A stretch of DNA of 64,000 bases from assembly GCF_988243305.1 (NCBI RefSeq), contig NZ_OZ547136.1; one strand, written 5' to 3'. The position numbers and the translations under genes were made by a program. A model generated the notes under the pieces. It was not told where the DNA came from. It ran no database searches and saw nothing but the letters and a program-made list of their open reading frames with translations. Below, piece after piece: positions 13,104 through 38,183 of this stretch. Each line of letters opens with the position of its first letter. Within the stretch, counting starts at the first letter, position 1.

Positions 13104-16100
13104 ATGGACAAGGAATTACCGTGGCTGGCGGATAACGCCCAAGTGGAACTGAAATATAAAAAAGGCAAAACGCCGCTCAGCCATCGCAGTTGGCCGGGCG
13201 AACCAGTGCCTGTTATCACTGAAAGCCTCATCCAGACACTGGGTGATGAATTGCTACAAAAAGCTGAGAAGAAAAAAAACATTGTCTGGCGTTATGAAAA
13301 TTTTTCACTGGAGTGGCAGTCGGCCATTACGCAGGCCATCAACTTGATCGGAGAACACAAACCCTCAGTTCCGGCCCGGACAATGGCGGCGCTAGCCTGT
13401 ATCGCGCAAAATGATAGCCAACAGTTGCTCGACGAAATCGTCCAACAAGAGGGACTGGAATATGCGACTGAGGTGGTGATTGCACGCCAGTTTATTGCAC
13501 GGTGTTATGAAAGTGATCCTCTGCTAGTGACATTGCAGTATCAGGACGAGGATTATGGCTATGGTTATCGCTCAGAAACCTATAACGAATTCGATCTCCG
13601 ACTGCGTAAGCATCTCTCTCTGGCAGAGGAAAGCAGCTGGCAGCGTTGCGCCGACAAACTCATTGCCGCACTGCCAGGAATAACCAAAGTTCGCCGCCCT
13701 TTTATTGCGCTGATCCTCCCGGAAAAACCAGAAATCGCCAATGAGTTGGTAGGCCTTGAATGCCCGCGGACTCATTTTCATTCTAAGGAGTGGTTAAAAG
13801 TTGTTGCTAATGACCCCAGAGCGGTGAAAAAACTCGAACGCTACTGGAGCCAGGATATATTTAGCGATCGGGAAGCCAGCTACATGTCGCATGAAAACCA
13901 CTTCGGCTACGCGGCCTGCGCTGCCCTTTTGCGCGAACAAGGACTGGCAGCCGTTCCACGCCTGATAATGTATGCCCATAAAGAAGATTGCGGCAGTCTG
14001 CTGGTACAAATTAACCATCCGCAGGTCATCCGCACCCTGCTGTTAGTTGCTGATAAAAACAAACCCAGCCTGCAACGTGTAGCTAAATACAGTAAAAATT
14101 TCCCCCATGCGACGCTTGCCGCACTGGCAGAGCTTCTGGCGTTAAAAGAACCGCCTGCACGCCCTGGTTATCCAATCATCGAAGACAAAAAGCTGCCTGC
14201 ACAGCAAAAAGCACGTGATGAATACTGGCGTACGCTGTTACAAACGCTGATGGCATCGCAGCCACAACTGGCAGAAGAGGTGATGCCGTGGTTAAGTACT
14301 CAAGCCCAGGCAGTGCTGAATAGTTATTTATCGGCACCGCCCAAAACGGTTATTGATAGCACCGATAACAGCCAAATGCCTGAAATCCTCGTTTCACCAC
14401 CGTGGCGTAGTAAGAAAAAAATGACAGTTCCACGTCTTGATTTGGCACCGTTCGAATTAACGCCGCAAGTTTACTGGCAACCAGGCGAACGAGAGAGGCT
14501 TGCCGCCACTGAGTCTGCCCGTTATTTCAGCACGGAATCTCTTGCGGAACGCATGGAACAAAAAAGTGGACGAGTTGTATTACAGGAGCTGGGTTTTGGA
14601 GATGATGTATGGCTGTTTTTGAATTATATACTCCCCGGAAAACTGGATGCTGCATGCAATTCACTCATTGTTCAGTGGCATTACTACCCAGGGCGGGTTG
14701 AAGAGATCATGAATGGCTGGAGCTCCCCGGAAGCTCAATTAGCAGAACAGGCGCTTCGCAACGGTCACGTAGAAGTGTTAATTAACATATGGGAAAATGA
14801 CAGCTACTCACGCTATCGTCGGGAAAAGAGTATCTGGAACCTGTATTTATTGGCGCAGTTGCCGCGTGAGATGGCTTTGACTTTCTGGCTACGTATCAAT
14901 GAGAAAAAGCATCTGTCTGCGGGTGAGGACTATTTTCTCAGTATCTTCGGATTGGATGCTCTACCAGGTCTGCTGTTGGCTTTTTCACATCGTCCAAAAG
15001 AAACATTTCCATTAATTTTAAATTTCGGCGCAACCGAACTGGCCCTGCCCGTTGCCCGCGTCTGGCGACGTTTCGCGGCGCAGCGTGATCTGGCTCGCCA
15101 GTGGATTTTACATTGGCCGGAACATACAGCTACTGCACTTATCCCTCTTGTCTTCACCAAATCCAGCGATAATAGCGAAGCTGCATTACTTGCCCTGCGT
15201 TTACTTTACGAACAGGGACATGGCGAGTTACTGCAAACCGTGGCAAACCGCTGGCAGCGTACAGATGTATGGCCTGCCCTGGAGCATTTACTTAAACAGA
15301 GTCCAATAGAGATTTACCCGACACGCATTCCAAAAGCCCCTGATTTCTGGCAGCCGGCAATGTGGTCCAGGCCGCGCCTTATCACGAATAATCAGCCTGT
15401 TACTGATGACGCTCTGGAAATTATCGGCGAAATGCTGCGCTTTACCCAAGGCGGACGTTTTTATTGCGGACTGGAACAGCTGAAAACGTTTTGCCAGCCG
15501 CAAACGTTGGCAGCCTTTGCCTGGGATCTTTTCACCGCGTGGCAACAAGCTGGTGCTCCCGCAAAAGACAACTGGGCATTTCTGGCGTTAAGTCTCTTTG
15601 GCGACGAAAGCACGGCACGGGATCTGACGACACTGATTCTCGCCTGGCCACAAGAGGGCAAATCTGCCCGTGCCGTCAGTGGTCTGAATATACTTACTCA
15701 GATGAATAATGATATGGCACTGATACAGCTGCATCATATATCGCAACGGGCGAAATCCCGCCCCTTACGTGATAACGCGGCGGAATTTCTTCATGTGGTC
15801 GCAGAAAATCGCGGTCTAAGCCAGGAACAGTTAGCGGACAGATTAGTCCCAACGCTGGGTCTTGATGATCCGCAGGCGTTGATTTTTGATTTTGGTCCAC
15901 GGCAATTTACCGTTCGCTTCGATGAAAACCTTAACCCGGTTATCTTTGATCAGCAAAACGTTCGCCAGAAAAGCGTTCCCCGGTTGCGCGCCGATGACGA
16001 TCAACTGAAAGCACCCGAGGCACTGGCCCGACTAAAAGGGCTAAAAAAAGATGCTACTCAGGTGAGCAAAAACCTGCTCCCGCGTCTTGAAACTGCCCTG

Positions 16101-16736
16101 CGCACCACCCGACGCTGGTCGCTGGCAGATTTTCATTCTCTGTTTGTTAATCATCCCTTTACCCGCCTGGTTACTCAGCGATTGATATGGGGTGTTTATC
16201 CGGCAAATGAACCGCGTTGTTTACTCAACGCCTTTCGTGTGGCCGCTGAGGGGGAGTTCTGCAATGAGCAAGATGAGCCAATTGACCTGCCTGCCGATGC
16301 TCTGATTGGCATTGCCCACCCGTTAGAAATGACAGCAGAAATGCGCAGTGAATTTGCACAGCTTTTTGCCGATTACGAAATTATGTCGCCTTTTCGCCAA
16401 TTGTCGCGCCGCACGGTGCTGCTCACGCCTGACGAGTCAGCCAGTAATAGTTTGAATCGCTGGGAAGGTAAATCTGCTACCGTTGGGCAACTTATGGGAT
16501 TGCGATACAAAGGCTGGGAGTCAGGCTATGAGAACGCATTTGTCTATGACCTGGGCGAGTACCGGCTGGTCCTTAAGTTTTCATCCGGTTTTAACCACTA
16601 CAATGTTGATAGCAAAGCGCTAATGAGCTTCCGTTCTCTTCATGTATACCGTGAGAATAAATCCGTCACTTTTGCCGAACTTGATGTGTTTGATTTGAGT
16701 GAGGCGTTAAGCGCACCCGACGTCATTTTCCATTAA
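13104..16736 (+). CDS. yehI: Large protein (1210 aa), paralog of YehH lacking the WGR-like N-terminus
   Basis: 1210-aa ORF; shares with yehH blocks such as FD(V/L)RLRKHL(A/S)LAEE..WQRC.DK, GEMLRF, AF.WDLFTAW..AGAP.K..WAF.AL, LDFGPRQFTV.FDE.L.P; AAGGAAAG RBS before ATG 13104. Confidence 0.85.
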   Translation: MDKELPWLADNAQVELKYKKGKTPLSHRSWPGEPVPVITESLIQTLGDELLQKAEKKKNIVWRYENFSLEWQSAITQAINLIGEHKPSVPARTMAALACIAQNDSQQLLDEIVQQEGLEYATEVVIARQFIARCYESDPLLVTLQYQDEDYGYGYRSETYNEFDLRLRKHLSLAEESSWQRCADKLIAALPGITKVRRPFIALILPEKPEIANELVGLECPRTHFHSKEWLKVVANDPRAVKKLERYWSQDIFSDREASYMSHENHFGYAACAALLREQGLAAVPRLIMYAHKEDCGSLLVQINHPQVIRTLLLVADKNKPSLQRVAKYSKNFPHATLAALAELLALKEPPARPGYPIIEDKKLPAQQKARDEYWRTLLQTLMASQPQLAEEVMPWLSTQAQAVLNSYLSAPPKTVIDSTDNSQMPEILVSPPWRSKKKMTVPRLDLAPFELTPQVYWQPGERERLAATESARYFSTESLAERMEQKSGRVVLQELGFGDDVWLFLNYILPGKLDAACNSLIVQWHYYPGRVEEIMNGWSSPEAQLAEQALRNGHVEVLINIWENDSYSRYRREKSIWNLYLLAQLPREMALTFWLRINEKKHLSAGEDYFLSIFGLDALPGLLLAFSHRPKETFPLILNFGATELALPVARVWRRFAAQRDLARQWILHWPEHTATALIPLVFTKSSDNSEAALLALRLLYEQGHGELLQTVANRWQRTDVWPALEHLLKQSPIEIYPTRIPKAPDFWQPAMWSRPRLITNNQPVTDDALEIIGEMLRFTQGGRFYCGLEQLKTFCQPQTLAAFAWDLFTAWQQAGAPAKDNWAFLALSLFGDESTARDLTTLILAWPQEGKSARAVSGLNILTQMNNDMALIQLHHISQRAKSRPLRDNAAEFLHVVAENRGLSQEQLADRLVPTLGLDDPQALIFDFGPRQFTVRFDENLNPVIFDQQNVRQKSVPRLRADDDQLKAPEALARLKGLKKDATQVSKNLLPRLETALRTTRRWSLADFHSLFVNHPFTRLVTQRLIWGVYPANEPRCLLNAFRVAAEGEFCNEQDEPIDLPADALIGIAHPLEMTAEMRSEFAQLFADYEIMSPFRQLSRRTVLLTPDESASNSLNRWEGKSATVGQLMGLRYKGWESGYENAFVYDLGEYRLVLKFSSGFNHYNVDSKALMSFRSLHVYRENKSVTFAELDVFDLSEALSAPDVIFH

Positions 16737-16795: not shown

Positions 16796-17116
16796 ATGAT
16801 CGTGCAAAAAGAGCTGGTCGCTATTTACGATTATGAGGTCCCTGTACCTGAAGATCCGTTTTCCTTCAGACTTGAGGTCCATAAACGCTCTGAATTATTT
16901 ACAGGTTCCGTCTACCGGTTGGAGCGATTCCGGCCACATCCAACATTTCATCAACGTGATCGAGAGGATGTCGACCCGCTAATAAATGATGCATTGATTT
17001 ATATAAGAGATGAATTTATTGATGAGCGAAAATTACGAGGCGAATCACCTGAACCTGTAATAGTAATTTTTAATTGTGAACTACAGAATATATTCAACCA
17101 ACAAATAGAAAAATAG
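16796..17116 (+). CDS. yehK: Small protein of unknown function (about 105 aa)
   Basis: 106-codon ORF with ATG at 16796; conserved position between yehI and yehL. Confidence 0.7.
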   Translation: MIVQKELVAIYDYEVPVPEDPFSFRLEVHKRSELFTGSVYRLERFRPHPTFHQRDREDVDPLINDALIYIRDEFIDERKLRGESPEPVIVIFNCELQNIFNQQIEK

Positions 17117-17124
17117 CTTTATTA

Positions 17125-17148
17125 AAGGGGGAAACGGTATTCCCCCTT
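17125..17148. terminator. Hairpin between convergent yehK and the zorO-like gene
   Basis: AAGGGGG...CCCCCTT stem (17125-17131 / 17142-17148) lying between the 3' ends of two convergent genes; U-tracts are weak. Confidence 0.45.
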
Positions 17149-17169
17149 AGATGCGTTTCAATTTGCCCG

Positions 17170-17259
17170 TTACTTCAACAAATCAATCAACCGTAACAGA
17201 GCCACTAATAGCTCCAGTACGGCAATGAGCACGGTTAACTTTTGTGTCAGCGTGTCCAT
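17170..17259 (-). CDS. zorO: ZorO-like type I toxin, small hydrophobic peptide (29 aa): MDTLTQKLTVLIAVLELLVALLRLIDLLK
   Basis: 30-codon ORF on the minus strand (ATG 17257-17259, TAA 17170-17172) with an AAGGAG RBS 6 nt upstream. The single amphipathic/hydrophobic helix ending in LLK resembles the ShoB/TisB/DinQ/ZorO peptide class as I recall it. Absent from the ORF track because it is under 60 aa. Confidence 0.7.
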   Translation of the reverse strand: MDTLTQKLTVLIAVLELLVALLRLIDLLK

Positions 17260-17440
17260 CCGCTCTCCTTATTAAGGAGCGCAACACCAGCACCTTACCC
17301 TTACACTGCCTGTCGATACCGGTTTACGTATGTTGGACCACGATGTTGCACTCCGGATCAGGGCACCACCTGCAGCACCACCCGTCCGGTAGCCAGGACT
17401 TAAAATTGGTCCGATCCGGCGCAACGTCCCAACCGTCTGG

Positions 17441-17491
17441 ATTATAAATCTCATTATCTTAATTGCAACGGGGTCCACCGATGGTTATAAT
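17441..17491. promoter_or_regulatory. Back-to-back sigma70-like promoters for zorO (minus) and the OrzO-like sRNA (plus) sharing a palindromic -35
   Basis: TTGCAA at 17463-17468 is its own reverse complement; 17 bp downstream on plus is TATAAT (17486-17491); 16 bp away on minus is TATAAT (complement of 17441-17446). Predicted zorO TSS near 17433 gives a 5' UTR of about 174 nt. Confidence 0.55.
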
Positions 17492-17497
17492 TCGTTC

Positions 17498-17581
17498 GTT
17501 GGAACACGATGTTGCACAGGCTGCGGTGTTGGGCCTGAAAATAGTAAATAAAAGAACCTGCCTCACCAGCAGGTTTTTTTA
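17498..17581 (+). ncRNA. orzO: OrzO-like antitoxin sRNA (about 85 nt) predicted to pair with the zorO 5' UTR
   Basis: Consensus promoter immediately upstream; strong intrinsic terminator ACCTGC-CTCACCA-GCAGGT + T8 at 17556-17581. The sRNA segment 17501-17517 (GGAACACGATGTTGCAC) repeats plus-strand 17335-17351 (GGACCACGATGTTGCAC) inside the zorO leader, so the two transcripts are complementary over 13 contiguous (16 of 17) nt. Confidence 0.6.
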
Positions 17582-17691
17582 TTTACTGTGATCTGCTTTC
17601 CAGATATTTTTCGCTCAAACAACTAATGCGGCAAACATTTATTGCGCGTAAAATATCGTTTATTTCATTAATACATTTCAGGGATGAATAT

Positions 17692-18780
17692 ATGTCACCG
17701 CAGAATAATCATCTGCAGCGTCCGCCTGCCGCTGTGTTATACGCCGATGAACTGGCAAAATTAAAACAAAATGATAACGCACCTTGCCCGCCCGGTTGGC
17801 AGTTAAGTTTGCCTGCGGCCCGTGCTTTTATCCTTGGCGATAGCGCGCAAAATATTAGCCGTAAAGTGGTGATTAGTCCCTCCGCTGTCGAACGTATGTT
17901 AGTCACTCTTGCCACCGGGCGCGGTTTGATGTTGGTGGGGGAACCTGGCACCGCAAAATCTCTCCTGTCTGAATTACTGGCAACCGCTATTAGCGGCGAT
18001 GCCGGGTTAACCATCCAGGGCGGCGCATCTACTACTGAAGATCAAATCAAGTACGGCTGGAACTACGCCCTGCTTATCAACCATGGTCCGTCAACGGAAG
18101 CACTGGTCCCTGCCCCGCTTTACCAGGGAATGCGCGACGGCAAAATTGTCCGTTTTGAAGAGATAACGCGTACACCGCTGGAAGTACAAGACTGTCTGTT
18201 AGGTATGCTTTCTGACAGGGTAATGACGGTGCCAGAACTCACTGGTGAAGCCAGTCAGCTCTATGCGCGGGAAGGCTTTAATATTATTGCCACTGCCAAT
18301 ACCCGCGATCGCGGCGTCAATGAAATGAGTGCTGCGCTAAAGCGTCGCTTCGATTTTGAAACTGTCTTTCCGATTATGGATTTCGCTCAGGAGCTGGAGC
18401 TTGTCGCCAGTGCTTCGGCGCGTTTGCTGGCCCATAGCGGTATTCCGCATAAAGTGCCTGACGCGGTACTGGAGTTACTGGTCCGCACCTTCCGCGATCT
18501 GCGTGCCAACGGCGAAAAGAAAACGTCAATGGATACACTAACAGCGATTATGTCCACCGCTGAAGCCGTGAACGTGGCCCACGCTGTGGGCGTCCGCGCC
18601 TGGTTTTTAGCGAATCGCGCAGGTGAGCCAGCCGATCTGGTGGACTGTATTGCCGGAACCATCGTCAAAGATAACGAAGAAGATCGCGCTCGTCTGCGCC
18701 GTTACTTCGAACAGCGTGTCGCCACACATAAAGAAGCTCACTGGCAGGCTTATTATCAAGCCCGCCACCGCCTGCCGTGA
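17692..18780 (+). CDS. yehL: MoxR-family AAA+ ATPase (362 aa)
   Basis: Walker A GEPGTAKS, Walker B-like VRFEEI, sensor-1 IIATANTR and LKRRF arginine region visible in translation; AGGGA RBS before ATG 17692. Confidence 0.85.
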   Translation: MSPQNNHLQRPPAAVLYADELAKLKQNDNAPCPPGWQLSLPAARAFILGDSAQNISRKVVISPSAVERMLVTLATGRGLMLVGEPGTAKSLLSELLATAISGDAGLTIQGGASTTEDQIKYGWNYALLINHGPSTEALVPAPLYQGMRDGKIVRFEEITRTPLEVQDCLLGMLSDRVMTVPELTGEASQLYAREGFNIIATANTRDRGVNEMSAALKRRFDFETVFPIMDFAQELELVASASARLLAHSGIPHKVPDAVLELLVRTFRDLRANGEKKTSMDTLTAIMSTAEAVNVAHAVGVRAWFLANRAGEPADLVDCIAGTIVKDNEEDRARLRRYFEQRVATHKEAHWQAYYQARHRLP

Positions 18781-38010: not shown

Positions 38011-38183
38011 GATGAGCATTCAGATAGTGGTTCACGCGCACGGGTTGCGCACCGCCGGAGTAAGGATTTACTGAGGCTAGCGACGCCATCATAACGAGCA
38101 AAAAGTGCGATCGTCAAAGGAGAATCGTGAGGAAATGCTGCATTGCTGACATTTACGCCAGCAATGCAACACAAAAGAACTTT

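What the first reader, a model, noticed from the sequence alone, without database searches (positions are those of the whole stretch)
17170..17259. Unannotated 29-codon hydrophobic peptide gene with a strong RBS: ZorO-like type I toxin
The minus-strand ORF encoding MDTLTQKLTVLIAVLELLVALLRLIDLLK has ATG preceded by AAGGAG and sits in a gap that the 60-aa ORF track renders as empty or spurious. The peptide resembles the ShoB/TisB/DinQ/ZorO class of membrane-depolarising toxins, a locus I recall as absent from K-12.
Basis: partly seen in the sequence, partly recalled or inferred. Interest (0 to 1): 0.6.

Follow-up and report, generated by a model that had tools for sequence, protein, structure and literature searches.

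The report
Known ZorO toxin with OrzP-type antitoxin
The small hydrophobic gene is real, but it is the already well-studied E. coli membrane toxin ZorO with its small-RNA antidote next to it, so it is an ordinary, known locus that automatic annotation simply skips.

Summary
The 29-codon minus-strand ORF at 17170..17259, with AAGGAG 5 nt upstream of its ATG, is exactly as described. Its product is 100% identical to the published, experimentally characterised type I toxin ZorO (UniProt ZORO_ECO57), so it is ZorO itself and not merely ZorO-like. It lies between yehK and yehL, where the zor-orz locus was discovered in 2010.

The rest of the module is intact:
- a 174-nt 5'UTR with the RBS buried in a hairpin;
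- a divergent antitoxin sRNA at about 17498..17582 (+), which scores 101 bits against Rfam OrzO-P (gathering score 60);
- 19 of 20 nt of pairing between the sRNA 5' end and UTR positions +83..+102.

One refinement: the pairing module (V1 = ACG) is the zorP/orzP type, while the protein has the ZorO sequence. Six of the seven sampled single-copy loci (the window included) share this combination.

The toxin gene is present in 3397 of 5426 complete E. coli genomes. RefSeq annotated it in none of the 40 rows listed, and NCBIfam has no model for it. A K-12 strain lacks the toxin and keeps only the sRNA, which is also published.

The parts
17170..17259 (-). zor toxin CDS, 29 codons plus stop; product identical to ZorO
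   Evidence: identity to the published ZorO peptide and to UniProt ZORO_ECO57
17265..17270 (-). Shine-Dalgarno AAGGAG, at +164..+169 of the mRNA, the published zorO RBS position
   Evidence: position given in PMC5397157
17260..17284 (-). hairpin that sequesters the RBS (UUGC-G-CUCCUU / AAU / AAGGAG-A-GCGG), +150..+174
   Evidence: MFE and partition-function fold; RBS unpaired probability 0.08 in the full-length UTR; RBS in a stem shown by structure probing in PMC5397157
17260..17433 (-). 174-nt 5'UTR of the toxin mRNA. The TSS is inferred at 17433, 7 nt after the -10 box. The published processing (delta-28) would start the processed mRNA at about 17405
   Evidence: the length matches the published 174 nt with no indels against both O157 units; the TSS is not mapped in this strain
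17332..17351 (-). antitoxin target site (GTGCAACATCGTGGTCCAAC), +83..+102, at the 3' end of the EAP region
   Evidence: duplex prediction; the EAP region +73..+102 and OrzO binding at its 3' end are in PMC5397157
17349..17354 (-). conserved GGAGTG RBS-like motif in the EAP region (proposed ribosome standby element)
   Evidence: sequence; motif and its mutagenesis described in PMC11264685
17441..17468 (-). toxin promoter: -35 TTGCAA (17468..17463), 16-nt spacer, -10 TATAAT (17446..17441)
   Evidence: 10 of 12 matches; the same hexamers are reported as conserved in at least 99% of loci
17463..17491 (+). antitoxin promoter: -35 TTGCAA (17463..17468, the same palindromic hexamer as the toxin promoter), 17-nt spacer, -10 TATAAT (17486..17491)
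17498..17582 (+). Orz antitoxin sRNA, OrzP-type (V1 = ACG at nt 9-11), about 85 nt, ending in a GC-rich terminator hairpin and a U-run
   Evidence: Rfam RF02083 OrzO-P at 17505..17580, 101.3 bits against a gathering score of 60. The 5' end is inferred from the -10 box and by homology to the O157 sRNAs. V1 definition from PMC3919570
17125..17148 (-). toxin mRNA terminator hairpin (AAGGGGGAA ... UUCCCCCUU), 8 bp from the convergent yehK stop codon
   Evidence: fold gives -15.3 kcal/mol. The simple terminator scan did not call it because the T-run is short

Best explanation
This is an intact single-copy zor-orz type I toxin-antitoxin module of E. coli, at its canonical site between yehK and yehL. 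The minus-strand gene encodes the 29-aa inner-membrane toxin ZorO. Its mRNA starts at about 17433 and carries a 174-nt 5'UTR that folds so that the Shine-Dalgarno sequence is buried, which makes the primary transcript poorly translatable. By analogy with published work, removal of the first 28 nt opens the +73..+102 (EAP) region, which promotes translation. A divergent sRNA of about 85 nt (17498..17582, +) is transcribed from a promoter that shares the toxin promoter's -35 hexamer. Its first 20 nt pair with +83..+102 of the toxin mRNA, blocking translation and triggering RNase III-dependent decay, so toxin stays low in growing cells. If the toxin accumulates it inserts into the inner membrane, depolarises it and depletes ATP, giving growth arrest or death. 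Shown here: peptide identity, sRNA family membership, pairing, promoter matches, the predicted RBS hairpin, genomic position and population distribution. Taken from the literature on the identical peptide and near-identical RNAs: toxicity, membrane localisation, the RNase III requirement and the processing step. Inferred: that these elements are expressed and behave the same way in this strain. By pairing specificity the module is the zorP/orzP type, although the protein has the ZorO sequence.
For: The peptide is identical to the published ZorO peptide, to UniProt ZORO_ECO57 and to one O157:H7 copy. Rfam OrzO-P scores 101.3 bits against a gathering score of 60 at 17505..17580 (+). The sRNA 5' end pairs with UTR +83..+102 at 19 of 20 positions (6+13 around one A.G mismatch), dG -34 kcal/mol, against -24 with the O157 OrzO seed. 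This passes the published requirement of at least 17 paired nt with one internal mismatch. V1 is ACG, the OrzP type. The UTR is exactly 174 nt and the RBS lies at +164..+169, as published. Predicted RBS unpaired probability is 0.08 in the full-length UTR, and target-region accessibility rises from 0.27 to 0.42 after delta-28. Both promoters match 10 of 12 consensus positions. The flanks are yehI/yehK and yehL, the site reported in PMC2887945. The toxin gene with its UTR is in 3397 of 5426 complete genomes. Published experiments cover toxicity, depolarisation, ATP loss and inner-membrane localisation and RNase III-dependent repression by the sRNA 5' end.
Against: There are no expression, processing or toxicity data for this strain. 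The TSS, processing site and sRNA ends are placed by homology. Published repression experiments were done with the O-type pair, and the P-type pair has been characterised less directly. The in-silico folds reproduce the published opening of the EAP region only modestly (0.25 to 0.37). The physiological role of chromosomal zor-orz at native expression levels is still unresolved in the literature, and toxicity has been shown only on overexpression.
Confidence: 0.95

Rival explanations
1. The unit is a recent recombinant: a deletion between the tandem zorP-orzP and zorO-orzO units fused the P-type sRNA and UTR to the O-type coding region and terminator.
For: Against the O157:H7 reference, the window matches unit P at nearly all diagnostic positions from the yehL side through the target site. 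It matches unit O at codon 3, two further CDS sites and the terminator.
Against: The same combination (P-type seed and target with the MDT peptide) occurs in 6 of the 7 sampled single-copy loci (the window included). It also occurs in the yehL-proximal unit of a two-copy strain whose other unit is Q-type. The T3S change therefore looks specific to the O157 zorP copy, not diagnostic of P-type units. The survey paper reports the ZorO protein sequence for 72.5% of all zor ORFs. The middle of the UTR shows interleaved O and P matches, not one clean crossover.
Confidence: 0.12
2. The elements are intact, but at native levels the module does not act as a growth-arresting toxin. Its relevant effect would be something else, such as the aminoglycoside tolerance reported for multicopy zor-orz, which can be uncoupled from toxicity.
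For: PMC9860968 reports that a non-toxic R23L variant still improves growth in kanamycin and that multicopy zor-orz does not depolarise cells.
Against: This concerns the physiological role, not the identity of the locus. The peptide is unquestionably toxic when overproduced. Nothing in the window distinguishes between the two roles.
Confidence: 0.25
3. The ORF is a chance open frame in an intergenic spacer and is not translated.
For: Short ORFs are abundant: 60 of at least 20 aa in 3.5 kb. RefSeq annotates nothing here and NCBIfam has no model.
Against: The ORF is exactly identical to a protein detected by Western blot and shown to be toxic. UniProt has a curated entry for it. A cognate sRNA targets its UTR. 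Changes among copies are mostly synonymous.
Confidence: 0.01

Closest known systems
zorP-orzP of E. coli O157:H7 EDL933 (z3290 and sRNA-2)
   Same: Same yehL-proximal position. The sRNA seed (first 26 nt, V1 = ACG) and the 20-nt target are identical. The UTR is 174 nt with the same promoters, and the pairing pattern and energy are the same.
   Different: The window peptide has T3 (the ZorO sequence) where EDL933-type ZorP has S3. The sRNA differs at 2 nt outside the seed (U27C, A34G). There are a few UTR, CDS and terminator substitutions. The window has no second unit.
zorO-orzO of E. coli O157:H7 EDL933 (z3289 and sRNA-1), the experimentally dissected pair
   Same: The protein is identical. 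The terminator hairpin is identical over the compared stretch and abuts yehK in the same way (the flank beyond it differs). UTR length, RBS hairpin and overall architecture are the same.
   Different: The pairing module differs: the target is AGCAACGTTTCGTACCAAC and the seed is GUUGGUACGAAAUGUUGC (V1 = GAA). O157 OrzO is predicted to pair poorly with the window UTR (-24 against -34 kcal/mol). The paper shows that OrzP does not repress O-type zorO.
OrzPmg, the orphan antitoxin sRNA of E. coli K-12 (orz-only locus)
   Same: Same sRNA family and the same position upstream of yehL. The first 26 nt of the sRNA, including the seed, are identical.
   Different: K-12 has lost everything from about +30 of the toxin UTR through the CDS and terminator. 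The window has the complete toxin gene.
tisB-istR1 and shoB-ohsC (and dinQ-agrB) type I systems of E. coli
   Same: All encode a small hydrophobic inner-membrane toxin with a divergently encoded sRNA whose 5' end pairs about 100 nt upstream of a sequestered RBS. In each, the mRNA needs 5' processing to become translatable, in a standby-site-like manner.
   Different: These are different loci, regulators and sequences. tisB is LexA-controlled. Peptide similarity to ZorO is marginal (shuffle p about 0.005-0.04, using sequences recalled from memory).

Membership tests
Zor toxins (ZorO/ZorP/ZorQ; UniProt ZORO_ECO57) | 29-aa hydrophobic peptide with the ZorO sequence, including the ALLRL motif (20-24) and charged residues D2, K7, E16, R23, D26, K29 | tested here: met
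   100% identity to the published peptide and exact match to the UniProt ZorO entry. GRAVY is 1.4, as published.
Zor toxins (ZorO/ZorP/ZorQ; UniProt ZORO_ECO57) | Chromosomal position between yehI/yehK and yehL | tested here: met
   position stated in PMC2887945
Zor toxins (ZorO/ZorP/ZorQ; UniProt ZORO_ECO57) | Overproduction causes growth arrest, inner-membrane localisation, depolarisation and ATP loss | not testable with these tools
   Established for the identical peptide in PMC6669753 and PMC9860968; not measured for this strain.
zor-orz type I TA module | Divergently encoded Orz sRNA of about 85 nt (Rfam RF02083) | tested here: met
   101.3 bits against a gathering score of 60, full-length model match; own promoter with 10 of 12 consensus matches
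zor-orz type I TA module | The sRNA 5' end pairs with the toxin 5'UTR over at least 15 continuous nt, or at least 17 nt with one internal mismatch | tested here: met
   6+13 paired nt around one A.G mismatch, at +83..+102; threshold
zor-orz type I TA module | 174-nt 5'UTR with the RBS (+164..+169) sequestered in a stem, and an EAP region that opens after delta-28 processing | tested here: met
   Length and RBS position are exact. Predicted RBS unpaired probability is 0.08. EAP accessibility rises only modestly in silico, from 0.25 to 0.37. Processing itself is not testable here.
zor-orz type I TA module | Repression requires RNase III and is independent of Hfq | not testable with these tools
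   Literature only (PMC3919570)
zorO-orzO pair in the strict sense (O-type specificity) | sRNA V1 = GAA, with 18-nt complementarity to the target GCAACGUUUCGUACCAAC (one position a G.U wobble) | tested here: not met
   The window has V1 = ACG and the target GTGCAACATCGTGGTCCAAC, identical to the O157 P unit.
zorP-orzP pair (P-type specificity) | sRNA V1 = ACG with the matching zorP-type target | tested here: met
   The protein, however, carries T3 (ZorO sequence), not the S3 of EDL933 ZorP.
TisB / ShoB / DinQ toxin families | Detectable sequence homology of the peptide | tested here: inconclusive
   Local alignment scores lie 2-3 sd above shuffles (p about 0.005-0.04), over low-complexity hydrophobic helices. 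The comparison sequences were recalled from memory, not retrieved.

The most novel reading that the evidence does not exclude
The divergent toxin and antitoxin promoters use one and the same palindromic -35 hexamer (TTGCAA, 17463..17468). RNA polymerase could therefore occupy only one of the two at a time, making toxin and antitoxin initiation mutually exclusive and perhaps setting their ratio or its cell-to-cell noise. I did not find this discussed in the text of the papers I searched, although their figures box the promoter elements.
Probability: 0.15. Interest if true: 0.3.

Novelty: already known. Interest (0 to 1): 0.08.

Why it matters
This matters little for discovery. The locus was found in 2010 and has been dissected in at least five later papers, including a 2024 survey of copy number and allele types. 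The practical point concerns annotation. A validated toxin gene present in about 63% of complete E. coli genomes was unannotated in every RefSeq row examined, and NCBIfam has no model for it, so any scan that relies on RefSeq or on a 60-aa ORF cut-off will keep rediscovering it. The O/P/Q pairing types also show that the protein name (ZorO) and the regulatory specificity (OrzP-type) can be uncoupled. That matters when predicting cross-talk between units.

Tried and rejected
- NCBIfam scan of the peptide at E up to 10 gave no family. Pfam could not be run because the tool needs at least 30 aa.
- My first regex classification of units returned nothing because the length bounds were wrong; it was fixed. 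The fixed regex still misses Q-type sRNAs, so the second sRNA in L010 and L011 is not listed.
- I first read the window unit as an O/P recombinant. I downgraded this after finding the same combination in most sampled single-copy loci and in a P+Q strain.
- I looked for TisB, ShoB and DinQ sequences in a review in order to avoid relying on memory. They are not in the searchable text, so one search uses recalled sequences and is treated as inconclusive.
- The terminator scan did not call the toxin terminator, whose T-run is short. It reported the sRNA terminator hairpin only on the minus strand. I rely on the Rfam alignment and the folds instead.
- A search of the 2024 and 2014 papers for any discussion of overlapping or palindromic promoters found none in the text.

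Full report
**Observation.** Reading the minus strand and listing ORFs confirm an ATG-initiated 29-codon ORF at 17170..17259 (-). It encodes MDTLTQKLTVLIAVLELLVALLRLIDLLK. AAGGAG lies at 17270..17265, 5 nt upstream of the ATG. The ORF sits in the 575-bp spacer between yehK (16796..17116, +) and yehL (RefSeq-equivalent ATG at 17692, +). yehI (13104..16736) is upstream and yehM downstream. A 29-codon ORF is not remarkable in itself: one search lists 60 ORFs of at least 20 aa in 3.5 kb. The case rests on what follows.

**Identity.** The peptide is identical to the full-length ZorO peptide synthesised in PMC6669753 (section 4.3). An exact-sequence look-up returns 'Small toxic protein ZorO, ZORO_ECO57', and the T3S variant returns 'Small toxic protein ZorP'. 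An O157:H7 genome carries both in tandem between yehK and yehL. This is the arrangement in which Fozo et al. discovered the family in 2010 as z3289/z3290.

**The antitoxin.** Rfam finds the OrzO-P antitoxin family (RF02083) at 17505..17580 (+), with 101.3 bits against a gathering score of 60 and a full-length model match. By homology with the O157 sRNAs and the position of the -10 box, the sRNA starts at 17498 (GUUGGAACACGAUGUUGCAC...). It ends in a GC-rich terminator with a U-run at about 17582, which fits the published length of about 85 nt.

**Anatomy against published landmarks.**
- *Promoters.* The consensus scan finds exactly two sigma-70-like promoters in 17100..17650, each matching 10 of 12 positions. 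One is on the minus strand: -35 TTGCAA at 17468..17463 and -10 TATAAT at 17446..17441. The other is on the plus strand: -35 TTGCAA at 17463..17468 and -10 TATAAT at 17486..17491. They share one palindromic -35 hexamer.
- *5'UTR and RBS.* A TSS at 17433 gives a 5'UTR of exactly 174 nt. That places AAGGAG at +164..+169, the published zorO values.
- *Target site.* The sRNA target GTGCAACATCGTGGTCCAAC is at +83..+102 (17351..17332). This is the 3' end of the published EAP region, +73..+102. The conserved GGAGTG standby-like motif is at 17354..17349.
- *Folding.* Folding the window sequence puts the RBS in a hairpin (+150..+174, 17284..17260) with an unpaired probability of 0.08. Removing the first 28 nt raises target-site accessibility from 0.27 to 0.42. 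The direction agrees with the structure probing in PMC5397157, but the effect is modest.
- *Terminator.* A hairpin at 17148..17125 (-15.3 kcal/mol) ends the toxin mRNA 8 bp from the convergent yehK stop codon.

**Pairing and specificity.** The sRNA 5' end pairs with the UTR at 19 of 20 positions, as 6+13 around one A.G mismatch (dG -34 kcal/mol). The O157 OrzO seed would give only -24. Published mutagenesis sets the requirement at 15 continuous nt, or 17 nt with one internal mismatch, so the pair passes. The specificity triplet V1 (nt 9-11) is ACG, the OrzP type, whereas OrzO has GAA. A column-by-column alignment shows the window matching the O157 P unit through the sRNA, the promoters and the target. 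It matches the O unit at codon 3, two other CDS sites and the terminator.

I first read this as a recombinant. Sampling other genomes changed that reading. Six of the seven single-copy loci (the window included) have the same P-type module with the ZorO peptide, and one is O-type. A two-copy strain has P-type (MDT peptide) plus Q-type (A20S) units. This agrees with the 2024 survey, which found the ZorO protein sequence in 72.5% of zor ORFs, three locus types (O, P, Q) and a variable pairing region. Variation among the 14 copies is 4 synonymous against 2 conservative replacement changes in the CDS. UTR variation clusters at +84..+98, the pairing region.

**Distribution and annotation.**
- The toxin gene with its UTR matches 3397 of 5426 complete E. 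coli genomes. The median is 2 places per genome and the maximum is 4.
- The wider 1-kb region matches 5244 genomes. K-12-like strains cover only about 71% of it.
- K-12 TG1 has no toxin ORF but keeps an OrzP-type sRNA gene scoring 99.9 bits. This is the published orz-only state, OrzPmg.
- No RefSeq feature lies under the toxin in any of the 40 listed rows, and NCBIfam has no model. The missing model is the likely reason for the annotation gap.

**Mechanism.** Established for the identical peptide and near-identical RNAs:
- the primary transcript is translationally inert because the RBS is sequestered;
- 5' processing exposes the EAP region, which promotes translation;
- the sRNA pairs there, inhibits translation and drives RNase III-dependent decay, independently of Hfq;
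- accumulated ZorO localises to the inner membrane, depolarises it, lowers ATP and triggers hydroxyl-radical formation;
- ALLRL (residues 20-24) and several charged residues are required.

Shown here are the sequence-level prerequisites for all of this. That the module is expressed and behaves the same way in this strain is an inference.

**Comparison with other type I toxins.** The architecture matches tisB-istR1 and shoB-ohsC: a divergent sRNA, pairing about 100 nt upstream of a sequestered RBS, and activation by processing. Peptide similarity to TisB, ShoB and DinQ is marginal (p about 0.005-0.04 against shuffles). That test used sequences I recalled from memory, so it is inconclusive.

**Verdict.** The locus is already known in detail, including its absence from K-12 and its copy-number and allele variation. 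The only additions here are the exact coordinates in this window, the P-type specificity combined with the ZorO protein sequence, and the shared -35 hexamer.

Noticed in passing
window 17463..17468: The divergent toxin and antitoxin promoters share a single palindromic -35 hexamer, TTGCAA. The 2024 survey lists TTGCAA as the -35 of both genes, with identical conservation percentages, but I found no discussion of the overlap in the text.
   Followed up: partly
L003 2028..2110 (K-12 TG1), corresponding to window 17498..17582: K-12 lacks the toxin but keeps an intact OrzP-type sRNA gene with its promoter and about 30 nt of the toxin UTR. This is the published orphan antitoxin OrzPmg.
   Followed up: yes
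window 38015..38095 (-): Rfam hit to the Peptidase-S11 RNA cis-regulatory motif (RF03039), 72.8 bits against a gathering score of 34.8. It is unrelated to the finding.
   Followed up: no
window 13104..16736 (+): yehI is an intact 3633-bp, 1210-aa ORF in the window. In the genome that matches the 1-kb query at 100% (O158:H23 CFIAFB20140388) it spans 3632 bp and is flagged as frameshifted. Either the window comes from a different strain or assembly, or that record has a 1-bp error.
   Followed up: no
window 16796..17116 (+) and L005, L007, L009, L010: yehK, which converges on the toxin terminator, is polymorphic. It is 106 aa in the window, 105 aa in O157 and K-12, frameshifted in two sampled strains, and called 'hypothetical protein' with other lengths in two more.
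   Followed up: no
window 17626..17694 (+): The longest yehL ORF starts at ATG 17626 (384 aa), only about 45 nt after the sRNA terminator. RefSeq instead starts yehL at the equivalent of 17692 (362 aa). The sRNA is co-directional with yehL, so terminator read-through could reach it.
   Followed up: no
L010 1490 and L011 882 (toxin ATG positions): A third pairing type (target GTGCAACATGGCGACTCAAC) occupies the yehK-proximal unit in two sampled two-copy strains. It occurs once with the A20S (ZorQ) peptide and once with the ZorO peptide. This matches the published zorQ/orzQ type.
   Followed up: partly
window 17170..17259 (-): ZorO aligns weakly with TisB and DinQ over the hydrophobic core (scores about 3 sd above shuffles), using sequences recalled from memory. 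The 2024 paper separately notes 71-74% identity between part of the zor 5'UTR and a plasmid dinQ-like UTR, so a distant zor-dinQ relationship is conceivable.
   Followed up: partly
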